Shown: positions 3,742 to 47,244 of the stretch, one piece after another
Layout: each line of letters opens with the position of its first letter
Numbering within the stretch: the stretch's first letter is position 1
From: Paramecium tetraurelia
Taxonomy: Eukaryota
Direction: 5' to 3'
Assembly (NCBI GenBank): GCA_000165425.1
Contig: CT868016.1
Span: 62,001-126,000 of the forward strand
DNA length: 64,000 nucleotides
Translations under genes and position numbers: made by a program
Notes under the pieces: generated by a model
The model's database searches: none
Told to the model about the DNA's origin: nothing
What the model saw: the letters and a program-made list of their open reading frames with translations, nothing else

Positions 3742-5896
3742 TCATAGTATATAAGCTAAAGGTACATCATCTTCGAGAAGGACTTCAATTTCTTCTTCTC
3801 TGTCGTCCTTCAGTTCTAGAAAGGTCTCTTTTTAGTTTTTTATTACTTAGCCGTCATAAAACAAGGTTAAATTTTGTTGTCTTAATTTCTATTGAACTTA
3901 ATTAATTAAATATTGGATTACCTAATTGATATAGGTTTGAGTGTTCAAGTTCTTTATCAACTTGAATTAATTGATTTGGTGAAAATCCATCTGGAATCAT
4001 CTTGAGAATGAGGTTTACAAGTTTTCTTTCCTTCGAAATAACTTGTTCTTCCAAAATGAAGAGATTTTCACTTTCTTATAGAACACCTTAAATATTTGAA
4101 TTCAAGTTTACTCTATTTCCATTATACATTAATTCATAATTATCAGGTAATTAATATTCAGTTAACAAAGCCTTTTTAACTAAAGAGAATTTAATTGTAT
4201 ATTAATTGTACTTTTTTTACTCTATTCTTTAAATTCCATCCTTGTTATATTAAATGTGAATAATAACATTTGCATTATTTACTTAATCCTCTTCTTACGA
4301 AACAATTTAGTTTTAATATTCAGCATAAAGAGCCACTTCAATTATGCTGTCATTTGATATTCCAAGTTCTTTCAAACTCTTGCCTATGTCTACTGCCCTA
4401 TCATTATATTTGAGAATATAGGTATCTCCATATTTTTAGATTGATTTATAGATTATGGATTGAGATAAGATTATATTTTCATCTATTATTACTTATTAAG
4501 GGATTAGAATATCTGAATTTTCTTATTTGCAAATAATATTTACAATTATGATATTCGTATTTTCTGTTTTACCTTCTTCTTTGAAATTCTCCTCATCGTC
4601 TGTAAAGTATGGATTTTCTGTAAAGTATGGATTTTCTATAAAGTAGCCATAACTATGAATGCTGTTAGTAGCTTTATGTTACTCCTTATCGTGTCCAATA
4701 TTTTTCATTTATTACTCCTTTTACTATTATTAAATCTTATTACAAGGTTATATCTTATTATCATAGATAAGCTTATATTATATTAAGTAATGTTTATTTG
4801 CTTCAAAGCCTAACTATTAAAATGTTGTGTTATCAATATCTAATTATTGATTATCATGAAATATAAATTCCACGTTTATGCATTTATTATTTTAATTCTT
4901 AATTATATTTTTTAAAGCTCCCAAGGTTTACTTTAAATTAACAACTTTAACTTCTCTATTGGTCTTATTAAAGTCGTTTATGATTGTTATAATAGCTGAT
5001 TCATCCTTACTTTCTTCCACTTCTACAACACCGTCCATTAGATAATCTTTATCCTTGTCTTTGGGAAGTTTTGGAAGAACCTATCCATTACATTTAATTT
5101 AATAATCGGAAATGTTTAGTACTCTATGTTTCTTTCTTATTTCATTGATGTTGTCTTCTAAATTTTGATCAGTTTAAATCTAATACTATTCGGTACATTA
5201 ATTAAACTTATAAACTAAAGCGATATGTTGTTAACTATTTATGGTCAAGGTTTAGTAATTTGGAATTTGCAATGAATAGATGGTTTCTTTCATATTTTCC
5301 ATTCTATCTAGTTGAATTCTATCATTTTTAAATATTTAAAATCTCCCTTTAATTTGCAATTGCTTGCGTATTTTCTACTTAATATTTGAGATAGTATCAA
5401 ATACGGAGAAACGAAACAAGTATAATTTATCCAAATTCTAAATTTATAGATTAGCCTGCATCTGGAATTTATGTACTTTTTTTTAAGGTATTTAAAAAAG
5501 GGACTTCGTTTTGCATAACTTATTGCCATCAAGGATGACTTCCACTTGATAATCAGTCTTAAAGTGTTCTGCCAATTACCTTTCTACTTCCAAATAGCTT
5601 ATGTAAATATTCATAAAGAGAGTCTTGACTTATTTTTTATCTTCTTTCAACTAAAATTGAATGTAGTCAAAATAGGAAAATTACAAAGTTATTTTGCTAT
5701 TCTATTTTAATTCTAATTCTTCTATAGTTTTATCTGTATTTAACATTTTGTCATCTTGATAGGCAACTGCTAAAGTAGCATCATTGAATCTAAAGTTTTA
5801 TTTTATAGGATCTATCCCTGATTCTAAAAGGGATTTAGGATCAGCTTGAATCACAAAGATTTATTCAAACTATATGCACTCGAATTTTAATAGCAT
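3742..5896 (-). CDS. Protein of ~8 tandem diverged ubiquitin-like (beta-grasp) domains, 709 aa
   Basis: Open code-6 frame with one 25-nt intron (2155-25=2130 nt). Repeated ~70-75 aa units ending in ubiquitin-like motifs such as DKTIEELELKQNSKITL, TTFQQLGFEANKHYLI and KSLKELGISNDSIIEV. Confidence 0.8.
4600..4645. repeat. 18-bp tandem duplication (x2.5) encoding ENPYFT-ENPYFT in the UBL protein linker
   Basis: ctgtaaagtatggatttt occurs twice exactly, followed by a partial third copy. Confidence 0.9.
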
Positions 5897-5937
5897 TAAA
5901 ATTTATATATAATAATAAATTATAAATTTTGAATCAT

Positions 5938-7737
5938 TCAATTGTTAATTTACTCTATAAAGAACTTTGTGTTCCTATGAGTAGAATCAATTTCGAAAGT
6001 TTCTTAAAGTCTATTTTGGTTTAATTTTAAGATCAAATTAGTAGAAGCATTAATTTGATATAAATTTTTGAATTTATTAATAATATTTTAGACAGTCGTA
6101 TTGCACTTCACCTTTAATGTTATTTCGTCTTATTTATCAACAATGTATAATGTAATTGGTATCAAATTATTATCATTTATTCTGCTCTAATTGATTATGA
6201 GACTAGGTTTTTAATCTGTAAATTATATGACATCTCCTTCTTTGTATATGGCAAGTATGTTTTAACTTAATTCAGGTTAAGCATCGCGATGTATCAAACA
6301 ATAACTATTCGTAGAGCCCTAAAATAAACGTAGAAGATTTTATCTTAATTCTTCAAAAGTCCAATTGTCCTGAACTTCAATAATATGATTAGTCTCTCTA
6401 TATAATACCAAAACACTTTTCTTGATTATTTCAAAAATAATGCAATCATTATTTTATGCTCCAATTCCTTCAAAGGTATGCCCTTTTGAAATCTATTGAT
6501 CTCCTAACCAAAGTTAAGTTTGCTACCCTCCAACCAATTCCTATACATATGTATCGATTAAATCATTTTGAGCTACCTTCTTTATAGTCTTCACTTTGGT
6601 TTGTTTATTCAGAAATCCTATTTACAACCAAGAAAAAATCTAGCTTTAAGAGATTTCCTTATAGTATATAGTTATTTTCGGTTCCAATTTAATTTCATCT
6701 TAATTGGTTAATTGTTTATGAGAACTGTTATAAAAATAAATCCTTTTCTCTTTAAATTAAGGCAGACCTTGTAAGAATTAAAGATTAATAGGAGCATTAA
6801 TCTTTTTTTTAAATTACTATTTTGGATTGAGGTTATTTATCAGATACAAATCCTACATAATTATTTATTCTAATTTAAGTATTTCATAATCTTTAAGTTT
6901 AAGTTCCTAAACTGTTTATTCAGGCAGCAACTCCTAATTTCCCTTTGTTAAAGATACTTCCTCAGCAATCGCATATAATTACTTTAAATACGTAATTAAT
7001 TCTTTGATTTATACACATTTACTTACTTTAAAACTTTGGGTCTCAACAGAGGATACGATAAGTATGACACTATCTAGTATTTTTAGTTCTAGCTTTTAAT
7101 TTTGAGGAATAGAATAATTATAATAGTTATCACCCTCGTTATTAATTACTTATTCATTGTATATAAGCTCGAATTCTAATTCTAAATTTAATTTCTATCT
7201 AACCTTTTGGTTGATATGCTTAAAATCTTCATTTAATAAGGTCAGAAATGTGTATATTTCAGATTTATATTCTAGTAAAAACGTTGGCCTTGCTATACAC
7301 CTCAATTCACAATCCTTTAAAATTTATTATTGGTAGAGTGATTGATGAGGTTCCAAGAGAGTTTAACCTGAATAGAGATCCAAATGATAATTTGAAATGG
7401 CAAACTCATTATAAATTTGTTTGTTTAGGCATGTTAATTTATCATAGATATTTATTTTAGAAATTTCACAGGATTCTTGCATTTCATTCGTAATTTTTAC
7501 TTTAACATAGAAAAAGAGCTTAACATTTATACTTGATGAATTGTTGATATTTAGGAAATTGATTTTGAATTTTACATCCAATTTATTATTTTCGTAAAAC
7601 ACATCTACATTATGAAAAGGTAATCTATTCTATTCTCTAATTTTTTCAACCAATTTCTCCAAAGTCTCATTATCATTTATCTCGACTTAGATATCTTTAT
7701 CTAGATTATCTATGTGAACTTTATAAATTTTTTCCAT
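5938..7737 (-). CDS. Second protein of ~8 tandem diverged ubiquitin-like domains, 599 aa
   Basis: Intronless 1800-nt ORF in code 6. Units include DIQVEINDNETLEKLVEKIREQ...VFYENNKLD, EQTVQELKLKDYEILKL and GHTFEGIGAQNNDCIIF. Confidence 0.82.
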
Positions 7738-21051: not shown

Positions 21052-22917
21052 ATGTAAAGAATACACCCTGATTAGGAGAATAAAGGTTTAAAGGTAGTGA
21101 AATCAGCCACAACCAATGTCTCATCGAGGACCTTTTAGAATAGAAAGGTTGTTGACTTAGTTTTTGAAGACATCCATTACTCAGTTCAGACTGGAAAAAG
21201 TAATCACATAAAATAGAATTAGCTGAGAGAGTTATTTTGGATCATGTATCTGGGATTTGTCCAGGAGGATAAACTACTGCCATTTTAGGGAGTTCAGGAG
21301 CTGGTAAAACATCTCTCTTGAATGTTTTGGCCTGCAGGATTACAAGCAATAAGCATTGTAAGCTAACTGGCGAATTGTATGCAAATCAGGATAAATATAA
21401 TTACGACAAATTTAGTGAGTTTGCTTCTTATGTAATGCAAAATGATGTTCTTTTGGAAACAATGACTCCAAAGGAAGCCTTTACGTTTGTATCTAGTTTG
21501 AAATACAGCGATGAGGAAACGAAAAAGTTGAGAGTAGAGGAAACCATTAAGAGCATGAGATTGGAGAAGTGTTAGAATAGCAGAGTGGGAGGAGCAATGG
21601 TAAAAGGAATCAGTGGAGGAGAAAGAAAGAGAACATCTATTGGTTATGAATTAGTTTCGAATCCAAGTGTTATACTTCTTGATGAACCCACTTCAGGCCT
21701 AGATTCATTTACTGCATTTTAAATTATGTATTAATTGTAATTGAGTATTTAGACATCAATTAAACTTACTTGCCAAAGATTAGGACAAAACTATTATTTT
21801 TACTATTCATCAGCCAAGTTCAGATATCTTTTTATTGTTTGATAGAATAATGCTATTGGTTTAAGGGAAACTAATTTACTAAGGAGATAGATGTAAAATT
21901 ATTAGTTATTTCAAATCTTTTGGATTCGAGTGTCCAACACATTCTAATCCTATGGATTATCTAATATCTATTACTCATAGTGAAGACCCAAAGAATGTTG
22001 AGGCCTATTCTCTTTATTTTTAGAATTACGAATAACAATTGGCTAATGAGATAAGATAAGAAATTAATAATCGGAATCAATCAATCATAACATACAAGTC
22101 AGTAGAAACTACGATATCTTATTAGATAGGATTGTTAACAAAAAGATGCTTTGTAAATTTCAGCAGAGATGATATGTAAATGAATGCGAGAGTAGGATCA
22201 GCTATATTCTAAGGCTTGTTGCATGGAGGAGTGTTTTGGAAGGCTGCCATGGAATCGGAGACTATCTCTGATGTAAGAAACATTGAGGGATCATTGTATT
22301 TCCTATGTGTCAATTTTGCAGTAGGATCTATGATGCAAGTAGTACTGGGTTTTGCTGTTGAGAGAGAAGTGTTTTTAAGAGAGGAGAATTCAAAACTCTA
22401 TTCAGCCTTCTCATACTTTATAGGGAAGTAATTTGTTGAAGTCCCCTTCTGTATACTACAACCTCTGATTCTACAGCTCATATCTTACTGGATGATAGGT
22501 TACAACGATCAAGATGCATCAATAGTCATAATCAACTTCTTTATTTGTATTTTACTTTGCATTTGCTCAAACTCTTTGGGGTTGATGGTTGGTTGTGCAT
22601 TCAGGGATATTAAATTAGCATTGACAGCAGTACCAATTATAATGATGCCAGTGATTTTATTGTCTGGTTACATGGCCAATTCCAAGAATTTTCCAGTGTG
22701 GTTTGGATGGTTACAGTATCTGAGTCCAGTACGGTATGCTTATGAGGCAATTTCATTAAACGAATTCACTAATCGTAATTTCTAAACTGACCCAAGAGAT
22801 CTGTATGATTTTCATATTGGGATGTGGAATTGTATCTACATCCTAATTGGATTTATTGTTGGATTTAGAATATTTGGATATTACTTTTTAAAAGGATTAA
22901 GGGAAAGATTATAATGA
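21052..22917 (+). CDS. ABCG (White-family) half transporter, 605 aa
   Basis: Walker A GSSGAGKT, signature [25 protein letters not shown] and C-terminal TM helices. Introns of 23 and 25 nt give 1818 nt. Confidence 0.95.
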
Positions 22918-24221: not shown

Positions 24222-24338
24222 AATTAAATATAATTATATTCTTTCGTATCCTCTCAAAAGAGCATTGTATTTATTTACATTCTGTGAATTATTATTTCAA
24301 CTAATTAAAATTTTGATTAACAATAAATTTAATTTTAT

Positions 24339-27300
24339 ATGAGCTACACTCCACAGCAACAGGAAGAAGTTAGAGCAGTTTATCAAAGGAATCAGCAACT
24401 TGAGATGCAAGTCAAAGCCTCTGTGAATGAAGTACAGCAACTTAATCAAAGATTGCAAATGTAAGAGCAAGCCTTCAAATAATCATAATAATAGTTGAAT
24501 CAGCAATTGCAAAAACTATCCCAGGATTTATCAATCAAGACTCAGCAGTTAGCCAATACTGAATAACAATACAAAAGATAATTGGATCATGCAAATGAAT
24601 AATTGAATATCGTTAAATAATAAACTCAATTGAGACTAGACTAACTTTCACAGGAATTGAAACTAAAATCAACAGCCTGTGACAAAGCAACTAATGAATT
24701 ATAAGCATGCAAGAACATTGAAATATTGCTTTTATAGAAAAATGCTGAAAATTTGAATGTAGTTAAATCATAATAGCTTGTATAACAAGATGCCAATGCC
24801 AAGAGAGTGATTGAAGATTTGAATGATAAATTGAGAGTCTTTGCAGTTCAATCTCAAAAACAAATTGGACAATTACAATAAGAATTAGCTATCAAAAAAT
24901 AAGAAATCGATCGACTCAGTTAAGAACTCAATTCTAGAAAGAATGAAATCTATCAACAATAATAAAAGATCGAAGCCACCAATATCGCTAAGAACAATCA
25001 GATCTCGTAGTTAGAATCCTTGTCTAAGAAGTAATTGCAGGAGTACAATGACAAACTCAATCAGTTCCAATCTCAAGCCTAAATGAGAATCGATTAACTC
25101 AATCAAGACATCAGTAATAAGACTGCTATGCTCGAGAAAGCCAATCAGGAAATCGCTCAAAAGAGAACAAGAGATCTAAGCCAATAATAAGCATTTTGAG
25201 TAAGTTAGCAACCAATACCAATCGAAAATTTAAGAGATGATGGGCAGATTGAATGAGCTTCAATTGCAGGCTGAGAAGGAGTAAAATCAATTTGGAAGAA
25301 CCAAGGATGATTTCTAAGTCAAAGTTCAGAATCTATCCAGAGACTTGAGTATTCAATAACAACAAAGCAACTAATTTGCGTAGGCCATGCAAAAAGAAAA
25401 ACTAGTAATTAAAATAAGAAATCATCAATCTGCAATAGCAAATAGCTTAAAAGCATTAGCAATATAGCGAATAGAAATCTTAAGCTGATGCTTAGATCAA
25501 TAAGTTGAATATAGAAATCAGTAAGTTAAAGACAGACTTGGCTGTTAAACAGCAATAACTAGAATCAAGTGAGTAACAATTCAACCAGTATAAGATGACA
25601 ACGACTAAATAGATTGACTCTATGATTCAATAATTCGAGTAGAGATAAAATGAAATTTCATTAGGATAATGAAGTCTAATCTAACAGATTGCTTGCTCAA
25701 AATAAATAAATGCTTGAGAAAACGGTTGAGGAACACAAGAAACAAATAGAGTAGTTGGACAGATTTTGGAATGATAAGTATAGATAGTTAAGTGAATAAG
25801 GTGGATAGGACTAATAGAGGATGACATAACAGTATTTGACTATTATTGCTGAGAATGAGCGAAAGTTCTAGAATTTGTTCAAGAATCAAGAATAATCATA
25901 TTTGTCTTAATTGGAAGCTTAAGAATAGCATTTTGAAATGCAAATTAATCAACTGTCGAATCAATTGAGAGTAGGTGAGTGGAGAAAAGGAATCCTTACA
26001 TACGCAATTGGTTACTGCTTAGGCTTAATTGAGAGATTTCGATTAGAGAGTGAGGGAATTGCATTACCATGGGTAGACGAAATCAGAGCAGGCTTATTTG
26101 TAGATAAATGGGTTGCAAAGTAGTAAGGAAGGTAATGATTATAAGTTATTATTAAATAGAGTTGTTTGCATTCATAAAGGAGAAACAGATTGAGTATGAT
26201 GCGAAGGTATTTGAACTGCAACAATAAATGTAAAGTTTAGCTGGTAATAAGGAAGCAATAGAGAAGGAACTGAGTTTGGAGAGAGTGGCAAAGGATGGTT
26301 TAAAAAAAGAGATTTTGCAGATAACTAATTAGCAAAAGATAAAGGATATGGAACTTAGAAATGAAATTTCTTTAAAGAGTTCAGAAATCATTAAATTAAA
26401 TAAAGAAGCAGAGAGATTGGATGGACTATTCAAGTAAGCCACATTGGAACTTAAAAGAATCAATGAGTAGAATGAAGATCTAAGATTGATTGATGATTTC
26501 CAATTAAAGGAGAAGGATTTGGAGATATCCAAATTTAAGTAAATAGAAATTGAACTGAAGAATAGAATCTAATAATTGCAAAAATAACTATCAAATTAAG
26601 AGTGGTAATTATCATAGGAGAATATTAAATTGAAGCAGTAAGTTAAAGATCTTAATAATGATGTGAGTATATTGAATACAAGAGTCAACATGTTGAAAAC
26701 TCAAAATAAGGATGAATCAGAGAGATTCCAAGAATTGTTATAGTCCCATGATGTTGAATTGTAGAGTTGGGCAGACAGATACAAGGATTAGTCATAACAA
26801 ATTGAAACCATGGCATAACAACTATTTGCAGCTCAACAATAGAACAAGTATAAAGAATAGCTTATCTTTGAATATGATAAGTTAAAGCAAGAATTTGATT
26901 TGCTCAACAGATAATACTAATCGTTGCAGGAGAATAGTTTAAGGAATAGTAATATTAAGGAAAATGCTAAAAATGTGGAAATGCAGTAATTGCAAGAGCA
27001 TTACGAATAATAGGTGGTATAATTGTAAAAGGAAATTGATTTTATGAGAGATAATAAGGTCAACCTAAGATAAGATGCATCAGTAATTGACTTTAGTGTG
27101 CAGATCACTGCATTAAATGATCAATTAGTTAAGAAGAACAACGAAATCACAAATATCAGAATGTAAGCAAATAGGACAATCATGGAAAAGGATAATCAAA
27201 TAATCTTATTGCAAGAACAATTAGAGTAATTGATATCAAAGGTTGATATTATCGAAAACAATCAAAACGATTAGGCTGAAGCAATTGAGAAGGCAGAGAA

Positions 27301-30300
27301 CTTGGAATTGATTATGAACGAAAAAGATAAGTTTATCGTTTAATTAAAGGAAGAACTTCAGAATTGTAAAGATTAGATCCTGGAAATGGAGGAACAATTG
27401 AAAATTAGATAAAATTCATTGGATATGATACAATAATAAGCCTCCTTAATTTCAGAACTTAAATCTTAAGTAGAGAGGAGATAAATAGAAAATCAAACTG
27501 GGGTACAACCAAAACCGGTTCAATAATGTTTTACTAAGAGTATCAGAAGTTCAACTCATAGGATGAGTGGAAAGAAAAGTCAAAATATTGAAGAGTCTCA
27601 AAAGGAAATCATTTCTTATGTGTAAAAAGTAACTGATGTCTCATTCAAATAACAATCAAATCAACAAATTATTTCAATTGTGAATCCTCAAATAAGTGAA
27701 ACTAAATAGATATTGAGACAATCATAAGAAGAATTATAGCAAAGAAATCTATTAAACTAATCAATTATGGTCTTGTAGTAGGAATTAAAGCAAGTCAAAT
27801 TAAATTTATCAAATGAGTAATAAGCCTCAAGTCAATTAAGATTTGAATTATCTTAAGCCAATGCCAAAATTGAATAATTGTAACTTGAACAATCCTAACT
27901 CAAAAATAAATCACAATAAAATGGTATTTGTATTTCAGTTACTATTTCTAGATTCTATCAATGTTGATCGACTAAATACAATGAGTATGAAAACGTATGA
28001 GTCCAACATGCAAAGTTTGAAATCTGAAAAGTAAGACTTGTAATAAAAATTAATTGAGTAAGAATAGTAATTTACTACTTTCACATCCAGAATAAATGAA
28101 CTTTAGAATGAAATCAAAAAGCAGAAAGAATAAATCTAATAATTGAATGATTCAGAAAATTAAAAAGAAAATTAGATCTTTGAATATAAAAGCATCATTG
28201 ATCGATTGCAAAATAATCTAAAATCTGAATAATCGATTGTCAGATAAAAGCAATCTGAAGTGAAATAGATTACTTATCAATAAGAACAAATCTAGTAGAT
28301 GCTCTAATAAGAGTATTAGGAGATTAAGAAAAACAATAATGAACTATCCTAATAGAAATTGAAATTGGAGTTAGAGATCTAAGAATTAAAATCTCAGTTG
28401 CAATAATCATAAGTTAACTAGCAATTTTATGAGTCTAAAATTACGAAATTGAACTCAGAGATACTCTTAGTTAGGGAGAAACTTGGAAAATTTGAACAAA
28501 AAACAATTTAAATTGAGTAGACTAAGACTTAAAGCAGTTAAAATAGTGACTAATTATAATCGCAATTTTAACAGCAGATACAAGAGTTAACAAGTAAATT
28601 AGAAAGGTAGTAATAATTAAGTAATTTAAATCAATAGGAGTTAAATAATCAATTATAGATTCTTAAAGAATAATATTAAGATACCATTTTCAAGTTTGAG
28701 AACAGTTAAGAATAGGTTAAATTGTTATAAAATAGTCTTGCACAATAAAAGTAACAATATCTGAATGATATGAATGAGAATGCTTAGATGCTTTCAATTA
28801 CAAATCAAGAAAATTAAAATCTGAAAATATAGATTGAACACTTAAATCAACAATTGAGTGCCTACAAAGAATCTAATACAAATGTTCAGAAGTGGCAGAG
28901 TCAAGTAGATTAATTGCAAAAATAATTACGCGAAGATAAACTACAATAACAAGAGTAAATTATTATCATTATCATATAAGTTTGAATAACCAATTGCAAA
29001 ATTAATTGTTTTAGTTTCAACAATCCAAGCGAGAATGGCAAGACCTAATATAGAGGTTACAGGAAGATAACAATCAGCTACAAGCAAATCTCAACAGAGT
29101 TCTTACAGCCAGATCAGAAAAGGAGTAGATTGACAACTATACACACTAATAAAACTAAAATATTTAGATAACAACCAATACTATCAAGACTTAGTTCATG
29201 AGTAATACGTCGGGGATGTCATCAGAGAAGATATTAATTGAATTACAGATAGCTTAAGAAGAAAATGTCAAATTGATTAGTTAATTGTAAGTGCTTCAGT
29301 TGAACAACAAATAGTTAAACAAAGAGATATAAGATTTTGATGAAAAGCAAAGGCAATTAGAAAATAGATACAAGGAATAATACTTGAGAATTCAATTAGA
29401 GCACGACCTCTCATTTAAAAAGATTGAATAGGAAAATGTGAAACTAATTAGCTAAGTGGAGGTTTATTAGAAAAAGTAATAGCAATAAGAAATTTTAATT
29501 GATGATTACATAGCATAGATTGAAAAGTTGAATATCATCAACAATCAACTATAATCGTAGTTATTATTGGTGTAAAAGGACAACTCCAATTTTTACAAGG
29601 ACTAAGATAAATAGATCTATAGGTTGAGTGAAATCAATTAACAATTATTAACTTAAATAACACAATTAAATAATTAGAAGAATACAGATCAATTGCAAAT
29701 TAAAGATTTGATAGTTATTAAGTAGACATTGGAAGAACAATTGAGTTAACATTCAGAGGAAATATTTTCTTTGAATGAAAGACTTAAAGATCTATCTGAT
29801 TAAAATACTCAATTAACTCATATGAACTCAGGATATCTAAATTAGATAACTGGATTGTAAGCTTAGTTATCTGAATTGTAAATCAAATTCACTCAAAATA
29901 TCTATGAAAACAAACCAAGATTTAGTGATCAATAACCTAGATAGTCCACCTCGAGCAATAGTAGGCAAATTGAAGAATTGAACAACAAGATTATTAGTCT
30001 AAATAATTAAGTCAATATTTTGAATCAATAAAAATCTTAAATTTAGTAAGAATTGATTTCAGTGAGAAAACAATTACAAAATGAGTAGGATGACAGATTT
30101 TCATAGCAATCTCGATAAAATAGATCCAATTAATATAAAGTAGCAAGTGAAATGGAGGAAAGAATTAGGTAATTGTAACAACAACTGGAGGAGGAGAAAC
30201 TAGGAAAATTTAGTAATAATAGTGAAGTTGAATTGAAAAACAAATAAATCATGATTTTAGAATAGAACAATAAAAAATTATAATAATAATTGGAATAATT

Positions 30301-31909
30301 GAATCTATAAATTGAAGAGGAGAAATCTCTACTTTATAAAGAGATTGATTAGTTGTCTGAATAGAATAAACGAACAAAACAATTAAAGACTTCTGAGTAT
30401 GATATCGAATTCAGAAATTCAGTTAAATAAAGCGAAAGTCTTAAGTAGGAATTACTGTAAGCCAATCAAACCATTAAGAAGTAGTAGAGTCGTATCGCAA
30501 CTTTGGAAGATTAGATTACTAAATAAAATAATGGATCAATTGATATGGATAGATAAAATAGATTTATTCTAGAGTTAGAGGAGAAGCTTAAAGGAAATCA
30601 ACGTAAATATGAAATTGAAATTAAAGAATTAAAAAATGATAAGCAATCTCTCAATTAATAGTTAGAAAAGGCTCAATATGAGTTACAAGAAATTAAATCT
30701 AAATATCATATTGAATTAGAAAAAACAGAATAGAAATTATAGAAAGAAAACCAGCGATTCTCTTTGTAATTAAATGATAAAGCAGCTTATTTGAGTCAAT
30801 TAGAAGTGAAAAATAGATAGTTGAAAGAGGAAATTCTGAATTAATAAGAAAGATACGATGAGAAATTAAGATAAGCTAACGAGAGAATCAAAGAAGTGAC
30901 TGAGGATTTAGAGATAATGATTGATAATTATAAGAAGGAAAAGCAAGTATTTAATAATATAATTAATTTAGTTAAGTTAAAAATGGGAGAGATAGAATGA
31001 AGATCTACGTAGATAATTACAATCTTCAGTTGATGATGTTAAGATAAAGACTGAAAGATTGAGTGTGGAAAAATATGAAAGGATGTCTTTAGATAGTAGA
31101 AAATAGATTGAGCAAGTTTAATAATAGTTAAATAATGAGATAAATGGATTGAAATAAGATATTAGATTAAAAAATGAGTAAATCAATTAGTTAAAATCTA
31201 CTAATTAATCTCTTTAATAAAAGTTGAGTAAATTTGAAACTTATATTCGGGATTTGGAAGATTAATTATAATAGTTTTCAAATAAAGAAGAGTAATTATT
31301 GAGAGATTTGAATTAATCAAAAAATTAATCTTTAGCAGATTCCTTAAATGTGAAGGTAATGGCATTAGAAAACAATTTAGTTAAAGCATAACAAAGAGAA
31401 GATTAATTATTACAAAAAATAAGATAATTAGAAAATTAATAAAATTCATTTCGAAATAATTCTGATTATAGAAATTTAGAAGTCAAAAACAATAATATGT
31501 TTGAGGAAATCTAGATTTTAGTTTAGACAATTAAAAACTAAGATCAAGAGATTGCTACTTTGAAAAATGAATTAACTTCCTATCAAAGAGAAGTGTCATT
31601 TATGAAAGAGGTTGTTAAGGAAGACACTAGTAGATTAGAGACATCTTCAGTTTTAGATGATAAAAACAGAAGAATAGTGGAATTAGAGAATAAGTGTGCA
31701 TTACTTGCTAATGAGAACACTAGACTCAATTAACTAAAAGTATTATATTAGCATTAATTTATTAGGTGAAGTAGGTTGATGAATGGAAAGTAAAATATGA
31801 TAAATTACAATAAGAATTAGAGAAGAGTTTAAATATGAAAGGTTGGGATGATCAATCAAGAAATATTGTAATGTCTAGCAATTTTGGATACTTATCAAAT
31901 GTTAAATGA
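24339..31909 (+). CDS. Giant (~2,500 aa) Q/E/L-rich coiled-coil protein, probably cytoskeletal/cortical
   Basis: Near-continuous heptad-rich code-6 frame from MSYTPQQQEEV to ...NKCALLANENTRLNQ...SNVK*. Short introns near 27865, 28955, 30947 and 31740; frameshifts at 25160-26170. Confidence 0.85.
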
Positions 31910-31977: not shown

Positions 31978-34900
31978 TCATTCTATTAAATAAAGCTTCC
32001 TTTTTTTTTCATTCTATCTTTTCCTCCAAAAGTAATATCCAATTCCAAAGCAAATTAATATCACAATTATTAGTACCCATATTTACCAGAATGTAAAGTA
32101 ATTGTATACCACAAGTAATTAGACAGAAGCAATCGAAGAAGTGAATCCATTAGATACATTAAATTGCAAGTACTCATTTTCTATTTTTCCCTTGATACAT
32201 AATTCCAATTTATCATTAAGACTATATTTGTTATAATATCTCTGTTTACTTTAATCTACACTATAGAGAAATGGCTAAAACATAATTTAATTTATTTACT
32301 TAATATAATTCACTTATTATTTCGAAATTAGAATCTGAATCAGTTGGAATTGCTATTCCTCCAATGGGATTTATAACCTCGTATTAGTTTTATTGATATA
32401 GTGTTAGGATGCTTTATTCATCTTTTTGATACTAAATGATCACCTTATTTTAATAGCTAATTGACTTTATCGCAATCCAATCTGCATAATTCTGGAATAC
32501 AAGTAATTTCTCTTTTGACTGACCCTTTTTTGGTGACAATTCGACATGTATTTAAAAATGTAAATATGTTTAAGATATAAACAATAGCTCCTACTTTATA
32601 GTCTAATTAATTATTTCAGAGCTGATTATGTGCAAATTCAACCATTCCTCATCTACATTTTAGAATCCATGATTCTTTATAATTTTATTAATATCAATCG
32701 TATGCTTCTCTAAATCAATTTATTATTCGCTTTGCTTTGGGTCAAATGGTAATATATTTAATTGGTAATCGTAATAATATATGTAATATTAGGATGTATT
32801 CTATATGATATTCATGTAATATCCTGGTAACTGCATATTTGTAACTAATTTGCATTAATTTAGTCTAAAATCTTCATTACATTAATAAAAAGCAATTAAA
32901 TATTTCTCAATCAAAAACATATCTTACCCAAACAATGCTATATCGATTAATTTGGAACTTATGATTAAATTCTCTTTATCAACTTTAAAAGTATTATCAA
33001 TAGACCTCCATTACATTATAGACAAGGAATCTTAAATGTTACATTTTAAGAGAATCTTTGAAGATGATGAATATAATATTTGAGTGCATTTTTAATCAAA
33101 TTAGGCTTATTGAATGATTTATTTGTTTGATGTTTGAATAATAATAAATTTATTTGGATAGAGAATGATCAATTAATTTTGATCTAAATCTTTGATGTCC
33201 ACTCCAGCTTCAAAATAATTGATTTGATTTAAGTTTAGATATTGTTGTAATTAAATTTAATAATTACAATCTCTACAATTCAATTCTATGTTTGTGACTA
33301 TCGAGTTCTTGATCCAATCATCTGAAATTGTTTCACAAAAATCCTAATATTTCTAACTTAATTATTGAGTCACATTCAAATCATCCTGATTTAATTGTAT
33401 TTAAGTTTGAAAATTCCTTATAGTTTCAACAGAAGATAGAATAATATTCTAATTCTAATTTTCAATAAATGTTGTCATATTAATTTGTTCGATGAAAAGT
33501 GAATTTTTCATTTCGCAAGTAGATTATATTTAGAAATCATGATAAAATTCAATAATTGTATCTTCTTTAATAAAAATTTTATTATCAAAAGCAGTCAAAA
33601 ATCTTTCTTCATACACATCTACTTTATGCCAAAATGAATTAACATTCAACTTGTTTACATTATAAACCAAGAGTTTATTATCAGAGATTATGTAAATCCA
33701 ACCATCATAAGTATATCGCGTTGCCATATTCATTTTATAGCCAAAAGAAGGTAACTATCTGACAAAATGAATGTCCTCTTATTAAACCATATCATATATT
33801 AAATATTAATTGCCAATCATGATTGCAAAATACTTTTCAAATATTAAAATGTCTTAGACTTTATCCTCAAATGTTAGGATGTCAATTATTGAAAATCCAA
33901 TCAAAGAGCAACTTAAAATGATCACTTCAGTATCTTCCTGATTCCTAACAAATACTTTAGTACTCTATGGATTAGCGTGAATGCCTGAAGGAGCCCATTT
34001 TTTTACTCCCAAAGCCTAGATGGTTTAGGAATTAATCTCAAAGAGGCTCAATAAATCAATATAGGAAGAATAGTAGGCTTCGATTGTAGAATTAGCTATT
34101 GATAATAGAAGTAGAACTTCTTTGCTTTTTTAAACTTTATCACCATAGCTCTTAGTTGTGATGGTATGAGTGAATATTTTTTTATTTTACATTGTGAATA
34201 CAAAAAGAGTATATGGATCTGTTTATGGATATGCTATCAACATCGTATTGGATGAAGACCAAGTGCATGAATTATTCTGCCTTAAATAGTCTAACTTTAT
34301 CATAGTCTAAAAAATCTAACAAGTTGAATTTGCAATTGAGCAATAAGTAAATTGAACCCAATCATTATTAAATTATTTAGCTATCAAATATTCCTATTCA
34401 ATTTATGCAACTGAGAAAAAGGTTAAAGAACTATTGCTTGGTTGAATCTAAATGTTTGAATTATCAAACTTTTTTACACTTATGTGGAGGTTTACCAAAT
34501 TATTGGAGATATTTAAAGCTTTTATTTTTATATTCTATCCTTAAATTGTTTAAACATTTAAATAGATTTGAGCATTTTTTGGATATGTTGGTATCGCACC
34601 AGAAAATAAACTTTGATTTGTTTCTGATACGAAGATTCGTTCAGTGTCTGTTGAAACTGTCGAATGATGTATTTAAAATGTGCATTTTTCATTGTTAGGC
34701 AGATTTTAGATAATTTAAGATACATGTGTATCTTCATAAATTATATTTGATTTATGGACTATAGAGTGTTAATTAAGTAGTAGATACCTTCCTATGTTGA
34801 ATTATTTAATAGCTATGATATCATCTTATGTGTAATCGTTTAATAAGAACTGTATATTTGGTACTTCCTTTTAGGAGATGCTTCTTAATTACAAATCAAA

Positions 34901-35956
34901 TGTTCTTATTATTTTATTTTCTGATAATGTAAATATTACTGATTATGCCATATAAATTTAGTCAACTTGTGTGTCTAAGATTTATGAAAATGAATCTGTA
35001 AGAGTCTAAAATAGAATCTTATTTCCATAATTGATAACATATGTTCCAACTTTTTTGAAGTTAAAATCAAATGATTTTACGTTCTCTCCATGTTAGAATT
35101 CATGCAATAATTTCCATTAAGTTTCACGTTTTGAATAATTCAACACCAAAACACATCCATCATAATTTAAAATAGCTATTTAACCTACTGTGCTTATTCG
35201 AAAATCCACAATCTATAGATTTTGAGAAGTAGAGGTTAAGTACTTCAGAGCAGTTGAATCAAGATAATACTCCAACATACCTTATTGATTAAATACTTCA
35301 AGGACTGAATTATACTACTATAGATTCAAATCATAAAGAGAAGCTCTAAATAACTACTTATTAGCAGCTAATAATTTCCTTTTGGTAGCAGAAGTATAGC
35401 CAATTAAATTATCATTCACACTTTTCATAAAAGTTTAGGTTTCATCATCCCAAAAAAACATAACATTTTACATTCCTCCATTTTCTTCTACATAAATACA
35501 ATCAGCAACAACGGTCGAATCAGATAAAAATGCTAAGTCAAAACAAAAATCTGCATCTATATCAGTGCTGAATTTGTCAAATTAAGGGATTCTACTCTTC
35601 TGACCTCTATTTATCTGGTTACTTATTGAGATTTTGAGTTTATTATTATTTTTTACCAAAGCTGCGAATTTGTTCTTCCATTCATAACTAAGATCCTATT
35701 ATAAAACATCAACTGCTAAAATTTAAGTGGAATCATAATCGACTTATTCCAATAGTTTTATTGGATCAATGTAACTAAGTGTTTGTGATTAGTCAATTAT
35801 TTAAATATTGCTAAAATCTCTGCTCATAAACACATCCTCATAATTCAACTTTACTTATTCATTCTGAGAGGAAAAGATTTGAACTGAGTCTTTTTGAAAT
35901 TTAGTACACCCTTATGATGTGTGTACCATTAATAATAGTACTATCATAAAAACCAT
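31978..35956 (-). CDS. Large type I membrane protein (~1,317 aa) with beta-rich ectodomain
   Basis: Signal peptide MVFMIVLLLMVHTSQG, then a C-terminal TM IWVLIIVILICFGIGYYFW followed by RKR and a short tail. One 25-nt intron makes the length a multiple of 3. Confidence 0.8.
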
Positions 35957-35981
35957 ATATTAATATTTATATCAACATTAA

Positions 35982-38900
35982 TCAATTTTTGCAACCCAGA
36001 TTCTCTAATATACTTAATATAGTATCTTCAAGATAGCCTTAAGAGAATATCAGCTAAGGGCCGATGGACAAAAAGTATTTTTTTAAACCTAATTTACATT
36101 ATTTGCTTAGCTTTCTCAAGCTTATTTCTTCTTCCAGTCTATCATTTTTGAAAATAAAAATTTACATCATACAACCTACTTTAGTAAAAATGCTTACTTG
36201 ACTTATGTAGACTTATCAAGAATAAGTCTGAGTTCAAATAAAATAATACTGATTTAATAAATCTCATCTTTCGAACAAACCTTTAAATCTTCAATCCCTA
36301 ATCAACTTCCAAACACCTTATGTGACCCTTCATTATATACACATATAAATTATTTTTAGTAAAATCTACGGAAGATTGAAATTTTTTTGGCATGTTGAAA
36401 ATGCACTCAGCAAACTCATTATTCTTATCCTTAAATGTCAACCTTAAGTTTAATTAATAAACCTCAATGTCTATATTATCTACAACTAAGGTTGTTACAT
36501 AAACTGGTTAAAATTCGCGAGAATTGTCAGCAGAATATTCTAAAGAATCCTATTCTTAAAAGGAAATATTAAATTATTAGGATGTTAAATACTCACCCTA
36601 AGAATTTAAAAATCCTGCACTAAATTAAAACTTTATTGATTAATTCTCTAAATTCCTTATTTCAGATTGATCAAAATCTTATCTCTCTTAAACATCAACT
36701 TTGTCTTAATCCTCTGCTTATGAAACTTAAATGTTCTCATTTTATTGTTTTAATTCAACAGATTCAGTCATTGACTTTTTTTCCAAATCATTATTATCGT
36801 TATTTTCGATAAAGTTATTTATGTTTGAATTCTCTGGTTTGTTAAATACCTATTAAGTTTAAGTTAAAGTTTATAATTAATTATAATCTCTACTTCTATT
36901 AAGTTAAACTTCAACTTTTTGGTCTTAGAACTCCACAGGTTAATATACTGAAATGGATTCTTAATTCGATGTTTATATATCTTAATTGTCTTGATCATCA
37001 TTTTTTATCGATTCTTTTTATGCATAGTCTATATTATTCTCTTCATTCTTTTATATTTCTAAACTCAATTCAATATTAGTTTAATTTTGGGTTTCCTCTA
37101 TTTTTTACACTTTTAAATGTAATTCTATTTCTTCTTCTTTTTAATTATTATCTTTTTATGCATTTTATTCTATAGAACCTTAGATATGAACATTGAATTC
37201 ATAATCTTGTTGTCTTTCAGGGACTACAGATTCTTAAATATTTATTTATTAGATTTCTTAGTTTTTATCCTCAATTTACAATTATTCCACTTCAATTAGT
37301 TCATTATTACTTATTTGACTTTAAAACTGCTGTATGTCTTATTTAAAATCATGCTTAGGATAATCATCAATAATTGAATTCTATTATTTTGAGTAGTTTT
37401 CATTTGATGTCTCCTCCTTATTCTGTATGAGAACATCTTAATCATATAATTGCTATTCTTCATCATCAAAATTTTATTTATTTGTACTATCTTCTACAAC
37501 TTGAATAGTATTTAATTATTCATTATTGTTGTGATCAGAATCTGTAGGTATTAATTTAATTTTATAATATTCTACCTCTTATTCAATATTTTAATCATGC
37601 TTGATTTACTCATTTTCGTTTTGATTGATCTACTAATTTTGGTTCATTTGATTCACTTCTGAATACTGTTCATGCTTCTCCTCTGAAAATGGTTAATGCT
37701 TTTCATCCGATTATGTTTCCTACTTTTGATCTGATTATAGTTAATGTATCTCTTCTGAATATGGTTGATGATTCTCATCTTATTAAAGTTCATGTTATTG
37801 GTCTATCTGTATTTCCTACTTCTCCTCTGATTATGGCTCCTACTTCTCTTCTTATTATGGTTAATTATTCTCTTCTTATTTTTGTTAGTTATTCTCTTTT
37901 ATAAATTATTCTAGTTGAACATCATTCGAATCTTAACTGATCAATTATGGTTTTGGTATTTCCTCATGAACTAGTTAAATTTTTGTATTATCATTCTCTA
38001 TAGATTCATTATTTTCTAACTATTAACTTTATTAAATCTATTCTTATTATTATTCTTAATTTTCGAGATTAGGTGATTCTTATCTTAATATTAAAATATG
38101 ATATTTATTCCCTACTATTTAAGTGATTTATATTTCAATTTACAAAAGTAATCTATTAATATATATAAAATTCTTTTATTCCAAATAAAGTTTGATTTGA
38201 TTATTATCTATTTGTATAATATTGATTATCTAGTTGGTAATCAAATCTATCAAAATATTGAATTCATAGGAATCCTTAGTAATTTCTTCATTTAATATCG
38301 ATTAGCAATTATTAATATTTAAATAAAATCTAAAATCTTATTTATACTTTCCTTTTCTCTCAACTAATAAAATCCTAATCCTCTTCAACTTATATGAATA
38401 GTTTGATAGTATTATGAACTGATGATCATCTATATCCTTTACTTTTTTATCATTGTGTCCTATTTCAAATTTATCCTTTTTTTTTATAAGTTTTAATTAT
38501 TTTTGCCACCATTTCTAAATAATAATGATCTTTCTCAATTTTTCTAATTTCTTCTTCTTCCATTCATTAAATTTCTTTTATGCTATCCATCTTTTTACTG
38601 AGGCTTGAATAGTTGTGGCTGCCTTAAACCTAATTTGTCTTTTATTTAGATTCTTGTTGCATTGTATTATTATCTAAGAATTATTATTCTTTTCTATATT
38701 TTTTACTTACTCAATTCTCTCCTGCAAATTCTACAATTCGTCGATCTTCACTTATTTAATCCTTTATAAAAATGATATCATACTTTTCAAGTTCAAAGAT
38801 GCTTTGCTTAAGAGAATCAAGTCTTTAATGTTGACTTCTATCTTGATAATTATCTTGGCTCTATCTGTATGTTGCAGATACTGAATCATGGCACTCACTT

Positions 38901-39280
38901 TGAACTAAAGAAACCTAACTATTTTAGATCTCTTAGAATAAGTTAGCATATTTGGTCGTCAAAGGCAAAAGCTGGAAATCTGTCAAGGAGACAACTGTTC
39001 TTTTGACAGAGTCAATCTTTTTCGGAGGAGCCTTCTTTTGGGGTAGTTGTTTCATAGAAGGCATTGAAGAAAACATTGTTTTATTGAGGTTGCTAAGATT
39101 GGTAGAGTTATTTATTTTAAATACTACTTACTTACCTTTGACTTCAAAGAACTCTGGCTTCAAACTATAAGCCTTCATGTAAGGTTAAATTTTTTTTGAT
39201 ATCAATTTTCTGTGTGATTTGTTTTATTGGGTTTCCACATAATCATTGACTTAAACTTAGATTAATGATTTATTATTCAT
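35982..39280 (-). CDS. IQ-motif protein with long acidic Q/E/N/D low-complexity region
   Basis: AATTIQASVKRWIAQKKF and IIIQKWWQKQLK motifs. 22-nt intron near 38762-38783; ends ENLGCKN*. The start codon is uncertain. Confidence 0.7.
37655..37900 (-). repeat. Degenerate 24-bp coding repeat (~10 octapeptides)
   Basis: Translates as KENNQQKQ EENNQPQQ EEKQEPQS EEKQEIQI DQQHELQQ DENHQPYS EEIHQLQS DQKQETQS DEKHQPFS EEKHEQYS. Confidence 0.8.
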
Positions 39281-47111: not shown

Positions 47112-47244
47112 TTGGTTTATAAAATTAAATTTATTAAGAAATTCTTCTAATTCTTTGTTCTTAAGAATTGAAAAAATGAAACTGAAAACTGATAAAAGCT
47201 GATGAAAATATATTATTAAATTTTTATATAATAAATATAATAAA

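What the first reader, a model, noticed from the sequence alone, without database searches (positions are those of the whole stretch)
3742..7737. Tandem pair of genes each made of ~8 diverged, non-cleavable ubiquitin-like domains
Seen: two head-to-tail genes 41 bp apart (709 and 599 aa). Each divides into about eight ~70-75 aa units with the beta-beta-alpha-beta-beta spacing of ubiquitin, including 'T(I/V/L)xx(I/L)xxK', 'L.Y.G..L' and 'K(S/T)L.ELGI...S.I' remnants. Units are very divergent from each other and between the genes, no unit ends in Gly-Gly, and no catalytic domain is visible. Established: true polyubiquitin genes have near-identical GG-terminated units. Inference: these are unprocessed, unconjugated poly-beta-grasp scaffolds or decoys from an old tandem duplication, possibly an uncharacterised ciliate family. 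Similar proteins may already exist as unannotated entries.
Basis: partly seen in the sequence, partly recalled or inferred. Interest (0 to 1): 0.78.

Follow-up and report, generated by a model that had tools for sequence, protein, structure and literature searches.

The report
Two tandem Paramecium poly-ubiquitin-like genes
Two neighbouring Paramecium genes each encode a chain of about eight very diverged ubiquitin-like domains with no cutting or attachment sites; they are real and conserved between species, but their role is unknown and they are a curiosity more than a surprise.

Summary
The gene structure is as described. The window is Paramecium macronuclear DNA read with TAA/TAG=Gln. Gene B (7737..5938, minus strand) encodes 599 aa. 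Gene A (5896..3742, minus strand, one 25-nt intron) encodes 709 aa. They lie 41 bp apart, head to tail.

Gene B is a genuine array of ubiquitin-fold units. Three different units each hit Pfam Rad60-SLD. The family profile aligns in register across unit boundaries with linear polyubiquitin. A low-confidence AlphaFold model still gives 56 significant Foldseek hits, and all 38 rows listed are tandem ubiquitin-fold proteins.

Gene A is weaker on its own. It has no Pfam hit and no significant fold hit. However, an ortholog passes Rad60-SLD in unit 6, and A is collinear with B unit by unit (permutation p=0.0018). This supports an old duplication of an already multi-unit gene.

No unit ends in Gly-Gly and there is no catalytic domain.

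Orthologs exist in P. pentaurelia and P. primaurelia, auto-named "Ubiquitin-like domain-containing protein". An exhaustive search found no relatives beyond a few ciliate-looking proteins.

The function was not tested. The best guess is a non-covalent, multivalent ubiquitin-like scaffold.

I rate it a new variant of a known kind, of modest interest.

The parts
5938..7737 (-). Gene B coding sequence, 599 aa plus TGA stop, no intron; 39 TAA/TAG codons read as Gln
   Evidence: The P. pentaurelia ortholog P0003 is also 599 aa and aligns without gaps at 70-71% identity.
5897..5937 (-). 41-bp spacer between the stop of B and the start of A
   Evidence: No GT..AG intron of 15-120 nt fuses B to A in frame.
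3922..5896 (-). Gene A exon 1 (residues 1-658 plus the first base of codon 659)
3897..3921 (-). 25-nt intron of gene A (GTAATCC...TTAAG, phase 1)
   Evidence: Removing it restores the frame, and the resulting protein matches the orthologs P0004/P0005 across the junction.
3742..3896 (-). Gene A exon 2 (residues 659-709 plus TGA)
7510..7737 (-). B unit 1 (aa 1-76)
   Evidence: As a slice: Pfam Rad60-SLD 22.3 bits (E 1.2e-4) and ubiquitin 18.8 bits. Aligns to a ubiquitin unit.
7285..7509 (-). B unit 2 (aa 77-151)
   Evidence: Collinear with the next ubiquitin unit of polyubiquitin. Weak UCH_UBL1 hit, E 0.027.
7075..7284 (-). B unit 3 (aa 152-221)
   Evidence: Collinear with a third ubiquitin unit. 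Best A partner is A unit 3, hhalign P 5.5e-4.
6862..7074 (-). B unit 4 (aa 222-292)
   Evidence: Pfam Rad60-SLD 21.4 bits, E 2.2e-4
6652..6861 (-). B unit 5 (aa 293-362)
   Evidence: Secondary-structure pattern of the low-confidence model only; no family hit.
6424..6651 (-). B unit 6 (aa 363-438); holds the only GG, at 403-404, which is internal
   Evidence: Secondary-structure pattern only; GG position.
6202..6423 (-). B unit 7 (aa 439-512)
   Evidence: Secondary-structure pattern. Weak PB1 hit, E 0.17. Best A partner is A unit 7, P 4.4e-4.
5941..6180 (-). B unit 8 (aa 520-599), after a 7-aa spacer
   Evidence: Pfam Rad60-SLD 24.8 bits, above the 23.8 cut-off, E 1.9e-5
5669..5896 (-). A unit 1 (aa 1-76)
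   Evidence: hhalign to B unit 1, P 0.0045 over 63 columns. Ortholog P0005 has weak TUG-UBL1 (E 0.014) and ubiquitin hits here.
5459..5668 (-). A unit 2 (aa 77-146)
   Evidence: Pfam Ubiquitin_5 22.3 bits against a 23.2 cut-off, E 1.7e-4. Best B partner is B unit 2.
5231..5458 (-). A unit 3 (aa 147-222), with the helix DTISNIKQKIRKQ
   Evidence: hhalign to B unit 3, P 5.5e-4. Motif found. It resembles the ubiquitin helix printed.
5009..5230 (-). A unit 4 (aa 223-296)
   Evidence: Secondary-structure pattern of the low-confidence model only
4763..5008 (-). A unit 5 (aa 297-378)
   Evidence: Secondary-structure pattern of the low-confidence model only
4565..4762 (-). A linker (aa 379-444): Gln-rich and acidic, modelled without structure, with a doubled ENPYFT
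   Evidence: It is 29% identical to the ortholog, against 41-63% for the units.
4328..4564 (-). A unit 6 (aa 445-523), with KSLKELGISNDSIIEV
   Evidence: Ortholog P0005 hits Rad60-SLD at 25.4 bits, above the 23.8 cut-off. P0004 hits ubiquitin at 23.4 bits, at the aligned place. The window copy has only UAE_UbL, E 0.036.
4040..4279 (-). A unit 7 (aa 540-619), after a 16-aa spacer
   Evidence: hhalign to B unit 7, P 4.4e-4; secondary-structure pattern.
3745..4039 (-). A unit 8 (aa 620-709), interrupted by the intron
   Evidence: 58% identical to the ortholog. Weak USP47_C hit, E 0.011. Its last 51 residues were not in the structure model.

Best explanation
These are two tandem, paralogous Paramecium genes. 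Each encodes a protein built almost entirely of about eight head-to-tail, strongly diverged ubiquitin-fold (beta-grasp) domains.

They descend from one ancestral multi-unit gene that was duplicated in tandem before the Paramecium species compared here split. That ancestor may itself have come from a polyubiquitin-type head-to-tail array.

No unit boundary and neither C-terminus carries the Gly-Gly that deubiquitinases and E1 enzymes need. The chains are therefore most likely neither cut into monomers nor conjugated. They would act as intact single polypeptides through non-covalent contacts: a multivalent ubiquitin-like scaffold or adaptor of the 'integral ubiquitin-like domain' type.

Shown here: the gene models, conservation between species, the ubiquitin-fold identity of several units, collinear paralogy, and the absence of GG and of catalytic domains.

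Inferred only: that the proteins are not processed, and that they work as binding scaffolds.
For: - Gene models.
- Orthologs: B is 70-71% identical, without gaps, to a 599-aa P. pentaurelia protein. A is 44-48% identical to 736- and 740-aa proteins of P. primaurelia and P. pentaurelia. The A and B orthologs of P. pentaurelia both sit on a contig of 680,776 bp.
- Ubiquitin fold in B, from Pfam: Rad60-SLD at E 3.4e-10 and 40 bits over 3 stretches. Three different units scored alone reach 22.3, 21.4 and 24.8 bits.
- Ubiquitin fold in B, from the PDB: the family profile hits 21 of 21 sequences that are ubiquitin chains or variants. It aligns over about 208 positions in register with three consecutive ubiquitin units.
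- Ubiquitin fold in B, from Foldseek: 56 hits at E<=1e-3. All 38 rows listed are linear ubiquitin chains, ISG15, FAT10, OASL, di-ubiquitin binders, USP7 or kindlin.
- Evidence for A: ortholog unit 6 passes the Rad60-SLD cut-off. A has sub-threshold beta-grasp family hits in units 2, 3, 6 and 8.
- A-to-B collinearity: the diagonal of the unit-by-unit hhalign matrix sums to 84.8, against a permutation mean of 43.6 (sd 12). Only 72 of 40,320 permutations are as high. Two of 8 diagonal pairs have P<1e-3, against 0 of 56 off-diagonal pairs.
- Constraint: A units are 41-63% identical to the ortholog, against 19-29% for the linkers.
- No GG at unit ends and no catalytic domain.
Against: - Both structure models are low-confidence (pLDDT 38.4 and 32.0), so the fold evidence is soft.
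- The Foldseek alignments have low TM-scores (0.15-0.41 on the target) and rmsd of 13-28 A.
- A's model has 0 hits at E<=1e-3; its best is 8.1e-3.
- A itself has no Pfam family at E<=1 as a whole protein. It has nothing in the PDB by sequence, either as a profile or as two large slices.
- The PDB E-value of 2e-13 for B is a sum over four registers of an identical-repeat target. Single stretches have E 0.04-4, and di-ubiquitin scores E 0.03-0.14.
- No internal repeat is detectable by sequence.
- In the alignment, ubiquitin's Leu8/Ile44/His68/Val70 positions align to Gln/Tyr/Asn/Lys in B units 1-2. Binding to ordinary ubiquitin receptors is therefore doubtful.
- Expression, localisation and partners were not testable here.
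Confidence: 0.6

Rival explanations
1. Only B is a poly-ubiquitin-like array. A is a beta-rich protein with one or two ubiquitin-like domains (unit 6, perhaps unit 2) and otherwise unrelated folds.
For: A has 0 Pfam families as a whole protein. It has no significant Foldseek hit and no PDB sequence hit. Units 4 and 5 of A rest on the secondary structure of a model with pLDDT 32.
Against: A is collinear with B unit by unit (p 0.0018; A3-B3 and A7-B7 P about 5e-4). Every family hit in A that is ubiquitin-like by name falls in a predicted unit (Ubiquitin_5, Ubiquitin_3, UAE_UbL, USP47_C; Rad60-SLD, ubiquitin, TUG-UBL1 in orthologs). The four best Foldseek rows for A are tetra-ubiquitin entries, though not significant.
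Confidence: 0.15
2. The arrays are structural: a rigid rod or cytoskeleton-associated repeat protein in which the beta-grasp units serve as building blocks, not as ubiquitin mimics.
For: In B, the last strand of one unit runs into the first strand of the next with 0-3 residues between them and no flexible tail (DSSP, for example E68-75 then E78-84). The ubiquitin receptor-patch positions are not kept. The family is lineage-specific.
Against: There are no hits to doublecortin, FERM or other cytoskeletal beta-grasp families at E<=1. There is no localisation data.
Confidence: 0.15
3. The genes are decaying relics of polyubiquitin genes and have no function of their own.
For: The units have diverged extremely, and A evolves fast (44-48% identity to its orthologs).
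Against: Frames of 599 and 709 codons are open, with TGA as the only stop. B aligns without gaps at 70% identity to its ortholog. A's units are better conserved than its linkers. A's intron position is kept in the ortholog proteins. Both paralogs are retained in at least two species.
Confidence: 0.05
4. The chains are precursors that are cut at non-Gly-Gly sites, or are conjugated by an unusual route.
For: None from these data; it simply cannot be excluded from sequence.
Against: There is no GG at any of the 14 internal unit junctions or at either C-terminus. The junction sequences are not alike, so no shared cleavage motif is visible.
Confidence: 0.05

Closest known systems
Polyubiquitin precursor genes (UBI4/UBC type)
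   Same: Head-to-tail ubiquitin-fold units of about 70-76 aa without spacers. The B family profile aligns in register across three consecutive ubiquitin units. All 21 PDB sequence hits are ubiquitin chains or variants.
   Different: The units are not alike: there is no self-similarity by BLAST or HMM. None ends in Gly-Gly. The chains are therefore not expected to be cut into monomers, an inference from the known Gly-Gly requirement of deubiquitinases, which I recall rather than tested.
Rad60 / Esc2 / NIP45 SUMO-like domains (Pfam PF11976 Rad60-SLD)
   Same: This is the best-scoring Pfam family for B units 1, 4 and 8, and for unit 6 of an A ortholog. These are integral, non-conjugated ubiquitin-like domains lacking Gly-Gly.
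   Different: As I recall them, those proteins have two C-terminal domains after a long N-terminal region. Here there are eight units and nothing else. Scores sit at the cut-off (21-25 bits), and the ubiquitin model scores nearly as well (18.8 bits). The hit therefore indicates the fold class, not orthology.
Tandem ubiquitin-like domains of USP7/USP47, ISG15, FAT10 and OASL
   Same: These are tandem ubiquitin-fold domains in one chain, and they appear among the Foldseek hits of the B model. A weak USP47_C hit falls at the C-terminus of A.
   Different: Those proteins have 2-5 units. They are attached to a catalytic domain (USP7, USP47, OASL) or end in Gly-Gly for conjugation (ISG15, FAT10); these details are recalled. 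Here there are 8 units, no catalytic domain and no Gly-Gly.

Membership tests
Polyubiquitin precursor | Near-identical 76-aa ubiquitin units | tested here: not met
   Self-BLAST finds no internal repeat. A seeded unit HMM scores other units at the level of shuffled sequence.
Polyubiquitin precursor | Each unit ends in Gly-Gly, the deubiquitinase cleavage site | tested here: not met
   A has 0 GG. B has 1 GG, at 403-404 inside unit 6, and it is absent from ortholog P0003.
Polyubiquitin precursor | Units joined head to tail without spacers | tested here: met
   B units 1-3 align in register with consecutive ubiquitin units. B has one 7-aa spacer. A has spacers of 66 and 16 aa.
Ubiquitin-fold (beta-grasp) domain superfamily | Match to a curated ubiquitin-like family model above its cut-off | tested here: met
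   B: Rad60-SLD at 40 bits against 23.8, and unit 8 alone at 24.8 bits. A from the window: none. A ortholog P0005: 25.4 bits against 23.8.
Ubiquitin-fold (beta-grasp) domain superfamily | Strand-strand-helix-strand-strand fold in a structure | tested here: inconclusive
   The models have pLDDT 38.4 (B) and 32.0 (A). The B model gives 56 Foldseek hits at E<=1e-3, and all 38 rows listed are tandem ubiquitin-fold entries. The A model gives none at that level.
Rad60/Esc2/NIP45 family | Two C-terminal SUMO-like domains after a long non-ubiquitin-like N-terminal region (recalled definition) | tested here: not met
   Eight units start at residue 1 in both proteins.
ISG15 / FAT10 type modifiers | Two ubiquitin-like domains and a C-terminal Gly-Gly for conjugation (recalled definition) | tested here: not met
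   B ends ...IEQINN and A ends ...PLAYIL. Each has eight units.
USP7/USP47 C-terminal ubiquitin-like array | Array attached to a USP catalytic domain | tested here: not met
   No peptidase or other catalytic family at E<=1 in either protein.

The most novel reading that the evidence does not exclude
The two proteins are genetically encoded, deubiquitinase-proof mimics of a linear polyubiquitin (or poly-SUMO) chain, born from a polyubiquitin gene that lost its Gly-Gly joints. They would act as sponges or decoys for chain-reading proteins. In this reading the faster-evolving copy A is tuned by conflict, for example with the bacterial endosymbionts of Paramecium.
Probability: 0.12. Interest if true: 0.7.

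Novelty: new variant of a known kind. Interest (0 to 1): 0.35.

Why it matters
Proteins that carry one to five built-in ubiquitin-like domains are common. A protein that is nothing but eight such domains, kept as a tandem gene pair in a ciliate, is an unusual architecture that I did not find described.

If the chains do imitate ubiquitin or SUMO polymers, they would be a natural uncleavable chain and a handle on how chain readers work in ciliates. If they are only structural, they show how a polyubiquitin-type array can be recycled into a repeat scaffold.

In either case the finding gives a domain map and a testable idea for a few 'unnamed protein product' entries. It does not bear on a long-standing open question.

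Tried and rejected
- Self-BLAST of A and B and A-versus-B BLAST: no internal repeats. The best A-B match has E 0.012-0.03.
- Unit HMM seeded on B units 1, 4 and 8: other units score at most 8.9 bits, while shuffled sequences reach 7.2 and reversed sequences 6.4. This is noise.
- Hydrophobic autocorrelation: B's best lags are 147 and 73, and A's are 110 and 150. Neither is significant.
- Whole-protein hhalign of the A family against the B family: E 0.014 with probability 3%. It is collinear but weak.
- PDB sequence searches with the A family profile and with two A slices: no ubiquitin-like hit. The A profile matched one unrelated chain (E 0.9) and one slice matched six unrelated chains (E 0.15-0.35), all non-significant.
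- A single fused B-A gene: no in-frame intron exists.
- The exhaustive search hit P0007 (1034 aa, bacterial-looking, E 1.5e-9) is rejected. One 27%-identical 73-aa match is counted eight times over near-identical repeats, and it straddles the B unit 5/6 boundary.
- Further family members in the window: none.
- Ubiquitin-system genes nearby: none among the 35 large ORFs scanned.
- Literature: six full-text searches listed nothing on a ciliate poly-ubiquitin-like family. I saw only the search listings and abstract starts, and read no paper.
- The ESM Atlas tool does not take window proteins read under the ciliate code, so that look-alike search stayed undone.
- No complex prediction was run, because I make no binding claim between named partners.
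Full report
GENE MODELS
The window is AT-rich (GC 0.24-0.34), and long frames open only when TAA and TAG are read as Gln (table 6). Two minus-strand genes fill 3742-7737.

Gene B runs from ATG 7737 to TGA 5940-5938. It encodes 599 aa, with 39 TAA/TAG codons read as Gln.

Gene A starts at ATG 5896. Its frame breaks near 3920. Among the GT..AG intervals that restore a frame to the TGA at 3744-3742, a 25-nt interval at 3921-3897 gives 709 aa. The orthologs read straight across that junction (...SNLYNL-VEQKLNQTNL... against ...SNLYQL-VQQKLRQQNL...), which confirms that intron.

The spacer between the stop of B and the start of A is 5937-5897, 41 bp. No GT..AG interval of 15-120 nt fuses B to A in frame, so they are two genes.

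ORGANISM AND RELATIVES
The nearest proteins are from Paramecium.
- B is 70-71% identical, without a single gap, to a 599-aa P. pentaurelia protein (P0003).
- A is 44-48% identical to 736- and 740-aa proteins of P. primaurelia and P. pentaurelia (P0004, P0005). Those two are 90% identical to each other.
- UniRef names them 'Ubiquitin-like domain-containing protein' and 'Rad60/SUMO-like domain-containing protein'.
- The P. pentaurelia A and B orthologs both sit on a contig of 680,776 bp. This suggests the pair is kept together, but adjacency was not checked.

An exhaustive phmmer search of 1.84 billion representatives with B gave only 5 proteins at E<=1e-3:
- B itself;
- a 66-aa fragment very like P0003;
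- two ciliate-looking proteins of 486 and 382 aa, 25-27% identical over B residues 38-360;
- one bacterial-looking repeat protein that I reject as a repeat-inflated chance match.

The word-limited searches with A, alone and as a profile, found only the two orthologs. Both searches scored only the roughly 8,000 candidates sharing the most words. The family is therefore small and, as far as these searches see, confined to Paramecium-like ciliates.

IS B A UBIQUITIN-LIKE ARRAY?
Pfam evidence. The whole protein matches Rad60-SLD at E 3.4e-10 and 40 bits, against a cut-off of 23.8, through three stretches. Cutting B into 100-aa slices shows three different units hitting on their own:
- unit 1: 22.3 bits for Rad60-SLD, and 18.8 bits for the ubiquitin model;
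- unit 4: 21.4 bits;
- unit 8: 24.8 bits.
These units are not alike in sequence, so the hits are independent.

PDB sequence evidence. A profile of the B family (5 sequences) matched 21 distinct sequences at E<=10, and all 21 are ubiquitin chains or ubiquitin variants. The printed alignment runs over about 208 profile positions in register with three consecutive ubiquitin units. Unit ends in B fall on ubiquitin's ...LRLRGG|MQIFVK... joints.

A caution applies. The headline E of 2e-13 for nona-ubiquitin sums four registers of an identical-repeat target. Single stretches have E 0.04-4, tetra-ubiquitin scores 2.3e-5 and di-ubiquitin 0.03-0.14. B alone reaches only E 0.013.

Structure evidence. The AlphaFold model is poor (mean pLDDT 38.4). 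Its Foldseek search nevertheless gave 56 hits at E<=1e-3. All 38 rows listed are linear tetra-, tri- or di-ubiquitin, ISG15, FAT10, the OASL tandem domain, di-ubiquitin-derived binders, USP7 or kindlin. The best is 5b83_D, at 1.6e-7 over 299 columns. TM-scores are low and rmsd values high, as expected when domains match but their mutual orientation does not. The tool also warns that low-confidence models can mislead.

IS A ONE TOO?
On its own, A shows little:
- no Pfam family at E<=1 for the whole protein;
- nothing ubiquitin-like in the PDB by sequence;
- a model with pLDDT 32.0 and no Foldseek hit at E<=1e-3. The top four rows are again tetra-ubiquitin entries (E 0.008-0.07), but unrelated proteins follow.

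Indirect evidence is better:
- Slices give sub-threshold hits to ubiquitin-like families inside predicted units: Ubiquitin_5 at 22.3 bits against 23.2 in unit 2, Ubiquitin_3 in unit 3, UAE_UbL in unit 6 and USP47_C in unit 8.
- Ortholog P0005 passes Rad60-SLD (25.4 bits against 23.8), and P0004 nearly passes the ubiquitin model (23.4 against 25.4), at the place aligned with A unit 6.
- A unit 3 keeps a helix, DTISNIKQKIRKQ, close to the ubiquitin helix DTIENVKAKIQDK as printed.

UNIT MAP
The secondary structure of both models repeats strand-strand-helix-strand-strand(-strand).
- In B the helices start at residues 26, 101, 172, 244, (320), 392, 461 and 549. I place eight units at 1-76, 77-151, 152-221, 222-292, 293-362, 363-438, 439-512 and 520-599.
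- In A the helices start at 24, 101, 169, 246 and 325. An unstructured Gln-rich and acidic linker follows at 379-444, and then three more units. The eight A units are 1-76, 77-146, 147-222, 223-296, 297-378, 445-523, 540-619 and 620-709. The last 51 residues of A were not modelled, because a spliced protein cannot be handed to that tool.

These boundaries are my reading of low-confidence models. Sequence statistics alone do not reveal the repeats: self-BLAST, a seeded HMM against shuffled controls and autocorrelation are all negative.

A AND B ARE COLLINEAR PARALOGS
I cut both family alignments at the unit boundaries and compared all units with hhalign.
- The A-unit-i against B-unit-i diagonal sums to 84.8. 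The mean over all 40,320 permutations is 43.6 (sd 12), and 72 permutations are as high (p 0.0018).
- Units 1, 2, 3 and 7 have their best partner on the diagonal.
- Local P-values are 5.5e-4 (unit 3), 4.4e-4 (unit 7), 0.0045 (unit 1) and 0.016 (unit 2). None of the 56 off-diagonal pairs is below 1e-3.
- Whole-protein comparisons point the same way but are weak (E 0.012-0.014 over about 210 collinear N-terminal columns).

The ancestor was therefore already a multi-unit protein when it was duplicated. Both copies have orthologs in P. pentaurelia, so the duplication predates that split.

WHAT IS MISSING
- A has no GG anywhere. B has one, at 403-404 inside unit 6, and it is not conserved.
- The C-termini are ...PLAYIL (A) and ...IEQINN (B).
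- The junctions differ from one another, so no shared cleavage motif is visible.
- There is no catalytic or other non-ubiquitin-like domain.
- There is no other family member in the window.
- There is no ubiquitin-system gene among the 35 large ORFs scanned. The neighbours are protein kinases, two ABCG-type transporters, a diacylglycerol kinase, an M14 peptidase, a bZIP protein, a TOG-domain protein and long coiled-coil proteins.

ARE THEY REAL GENES?
- The frames are 599 and 709 codons long, with TGA as the only stop.
- B's ortholog aligns without gaps.
- A's units are 41-63% identical to the ortholog, against 29% and 19% for its two linkers.
- The intron site is kept.
- Both paralogs are retained in a second species.
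Expression and dN/dS could not be checked with these tools.

MECHANISM
From the established need of deubiquitinases and E1 enzymes for a C-terminal Gly-Gly (my own knowledge, not tested here), I infer that the chains stay intact and are not conjugated. The most likely mode of action is then non-covalent: a multivalent array of ubiquitin-fold surfaces that serves as a scaffold or adaptor.

Two observations temper the 'polyubiquitin decoy' version. In the alignment, ubiquitin's Leu8, Ile44, His68 and Val70 positions align to Gln, Tyr, Asn and Lys in B units 1-2. The units also abut with almost no flexible joint, which would suit a rod-like structural protein equally well. I put about 0.8 on 'both are arrays of ubiquitin-fold units', higher for B than for A, and about 0.4 on 'binding scaffold' as the function. 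The overall confidence is 0.6.

NOVELTY
Tandem ubiquitin-like domains without Gly-Gly are a known kind of element. An all-ubiquitin-like eight-unit protein kept as a tandem gene pair in a ciliate is a variant that I did not find described. Six full-text searches turned up nothing, and I saw only the listings. The proteins already exist in public databases under automatic names.

LEFT UNCHECKED
- Ciliate genomic DNA of other species could not be examined for synteny or dN/dS.
- No expression data were available.

Noticed in passing
window 4601-4636 (-), A residues 421-432: The unstructured linker of gene A holds a directly doubled hexapeptide, ENPYFT-ENPYFT, followed by an acidic run. It is not conserved in the P. 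primaurelia and P. pentaurelia orthologs.
   Followed up: partly
window 21168-22914 (+) and 45158-47300 (-): Two ABCG-type half-transporter genes (ABC_tran plus ABC2_membrane) lie in opposite orientation about 23 kb apart. They have very similar Walker-A regions and are probably paralogs. Each is split over two frames, which implies introns.
   Followed up: no
window 24288-31766 (+): A run of long Gln/Glu/Lys-rich coiled-coil-looking ORFs (303, 637, 422, 720 and 282 aa in overlapping frames) with no Pfam match. It is probably one or two very large coiled-coil genes interrupted by short introns. The region also shows strong positive GC and AT skew.
   Followed up: no
window 32216-35971 (-) and 36145-38958 (-): Two large ORFs (1252 and 938 aa) with no Pfam family at E<=1e-4. 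The first begins with a hydrophobic, signal-like stretch. The second has a long acidic Gln/Glu-rich middle.
   Followed up: no
P0007 against B residues 358-430, window 6448-6666 (-): A 1034-aa bacterial-looking protein made of near-identical repeats of about 92 aa scored E 1.5e-9 against B in the exhaustive search. Pairwise, it is one 27%-identical 73-aa match repeated eight times. I read it as an E-value inflated by repeats, which is also a warning for the polyubiquitin E-values.
   Followed up: yes
P0006: A 66-aa database protein almost identical to residues 60-125 of the P. pentaurelia B ortholog. It suggests a truncated gene model or a broken copy of B in another Paramecium genome.
   Followed up: no
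window 43372-44619 (-) and 49076-53662 (+): An M14 zinc-carboxypeptidase-like gene, and a TOG-domain (XMAP215/CLASP-like) gene followed by a 1247-aa ORF. These are ordinary ciliate cytoskeleton-related genes and are unrelated to the finding.
   Followed up: no
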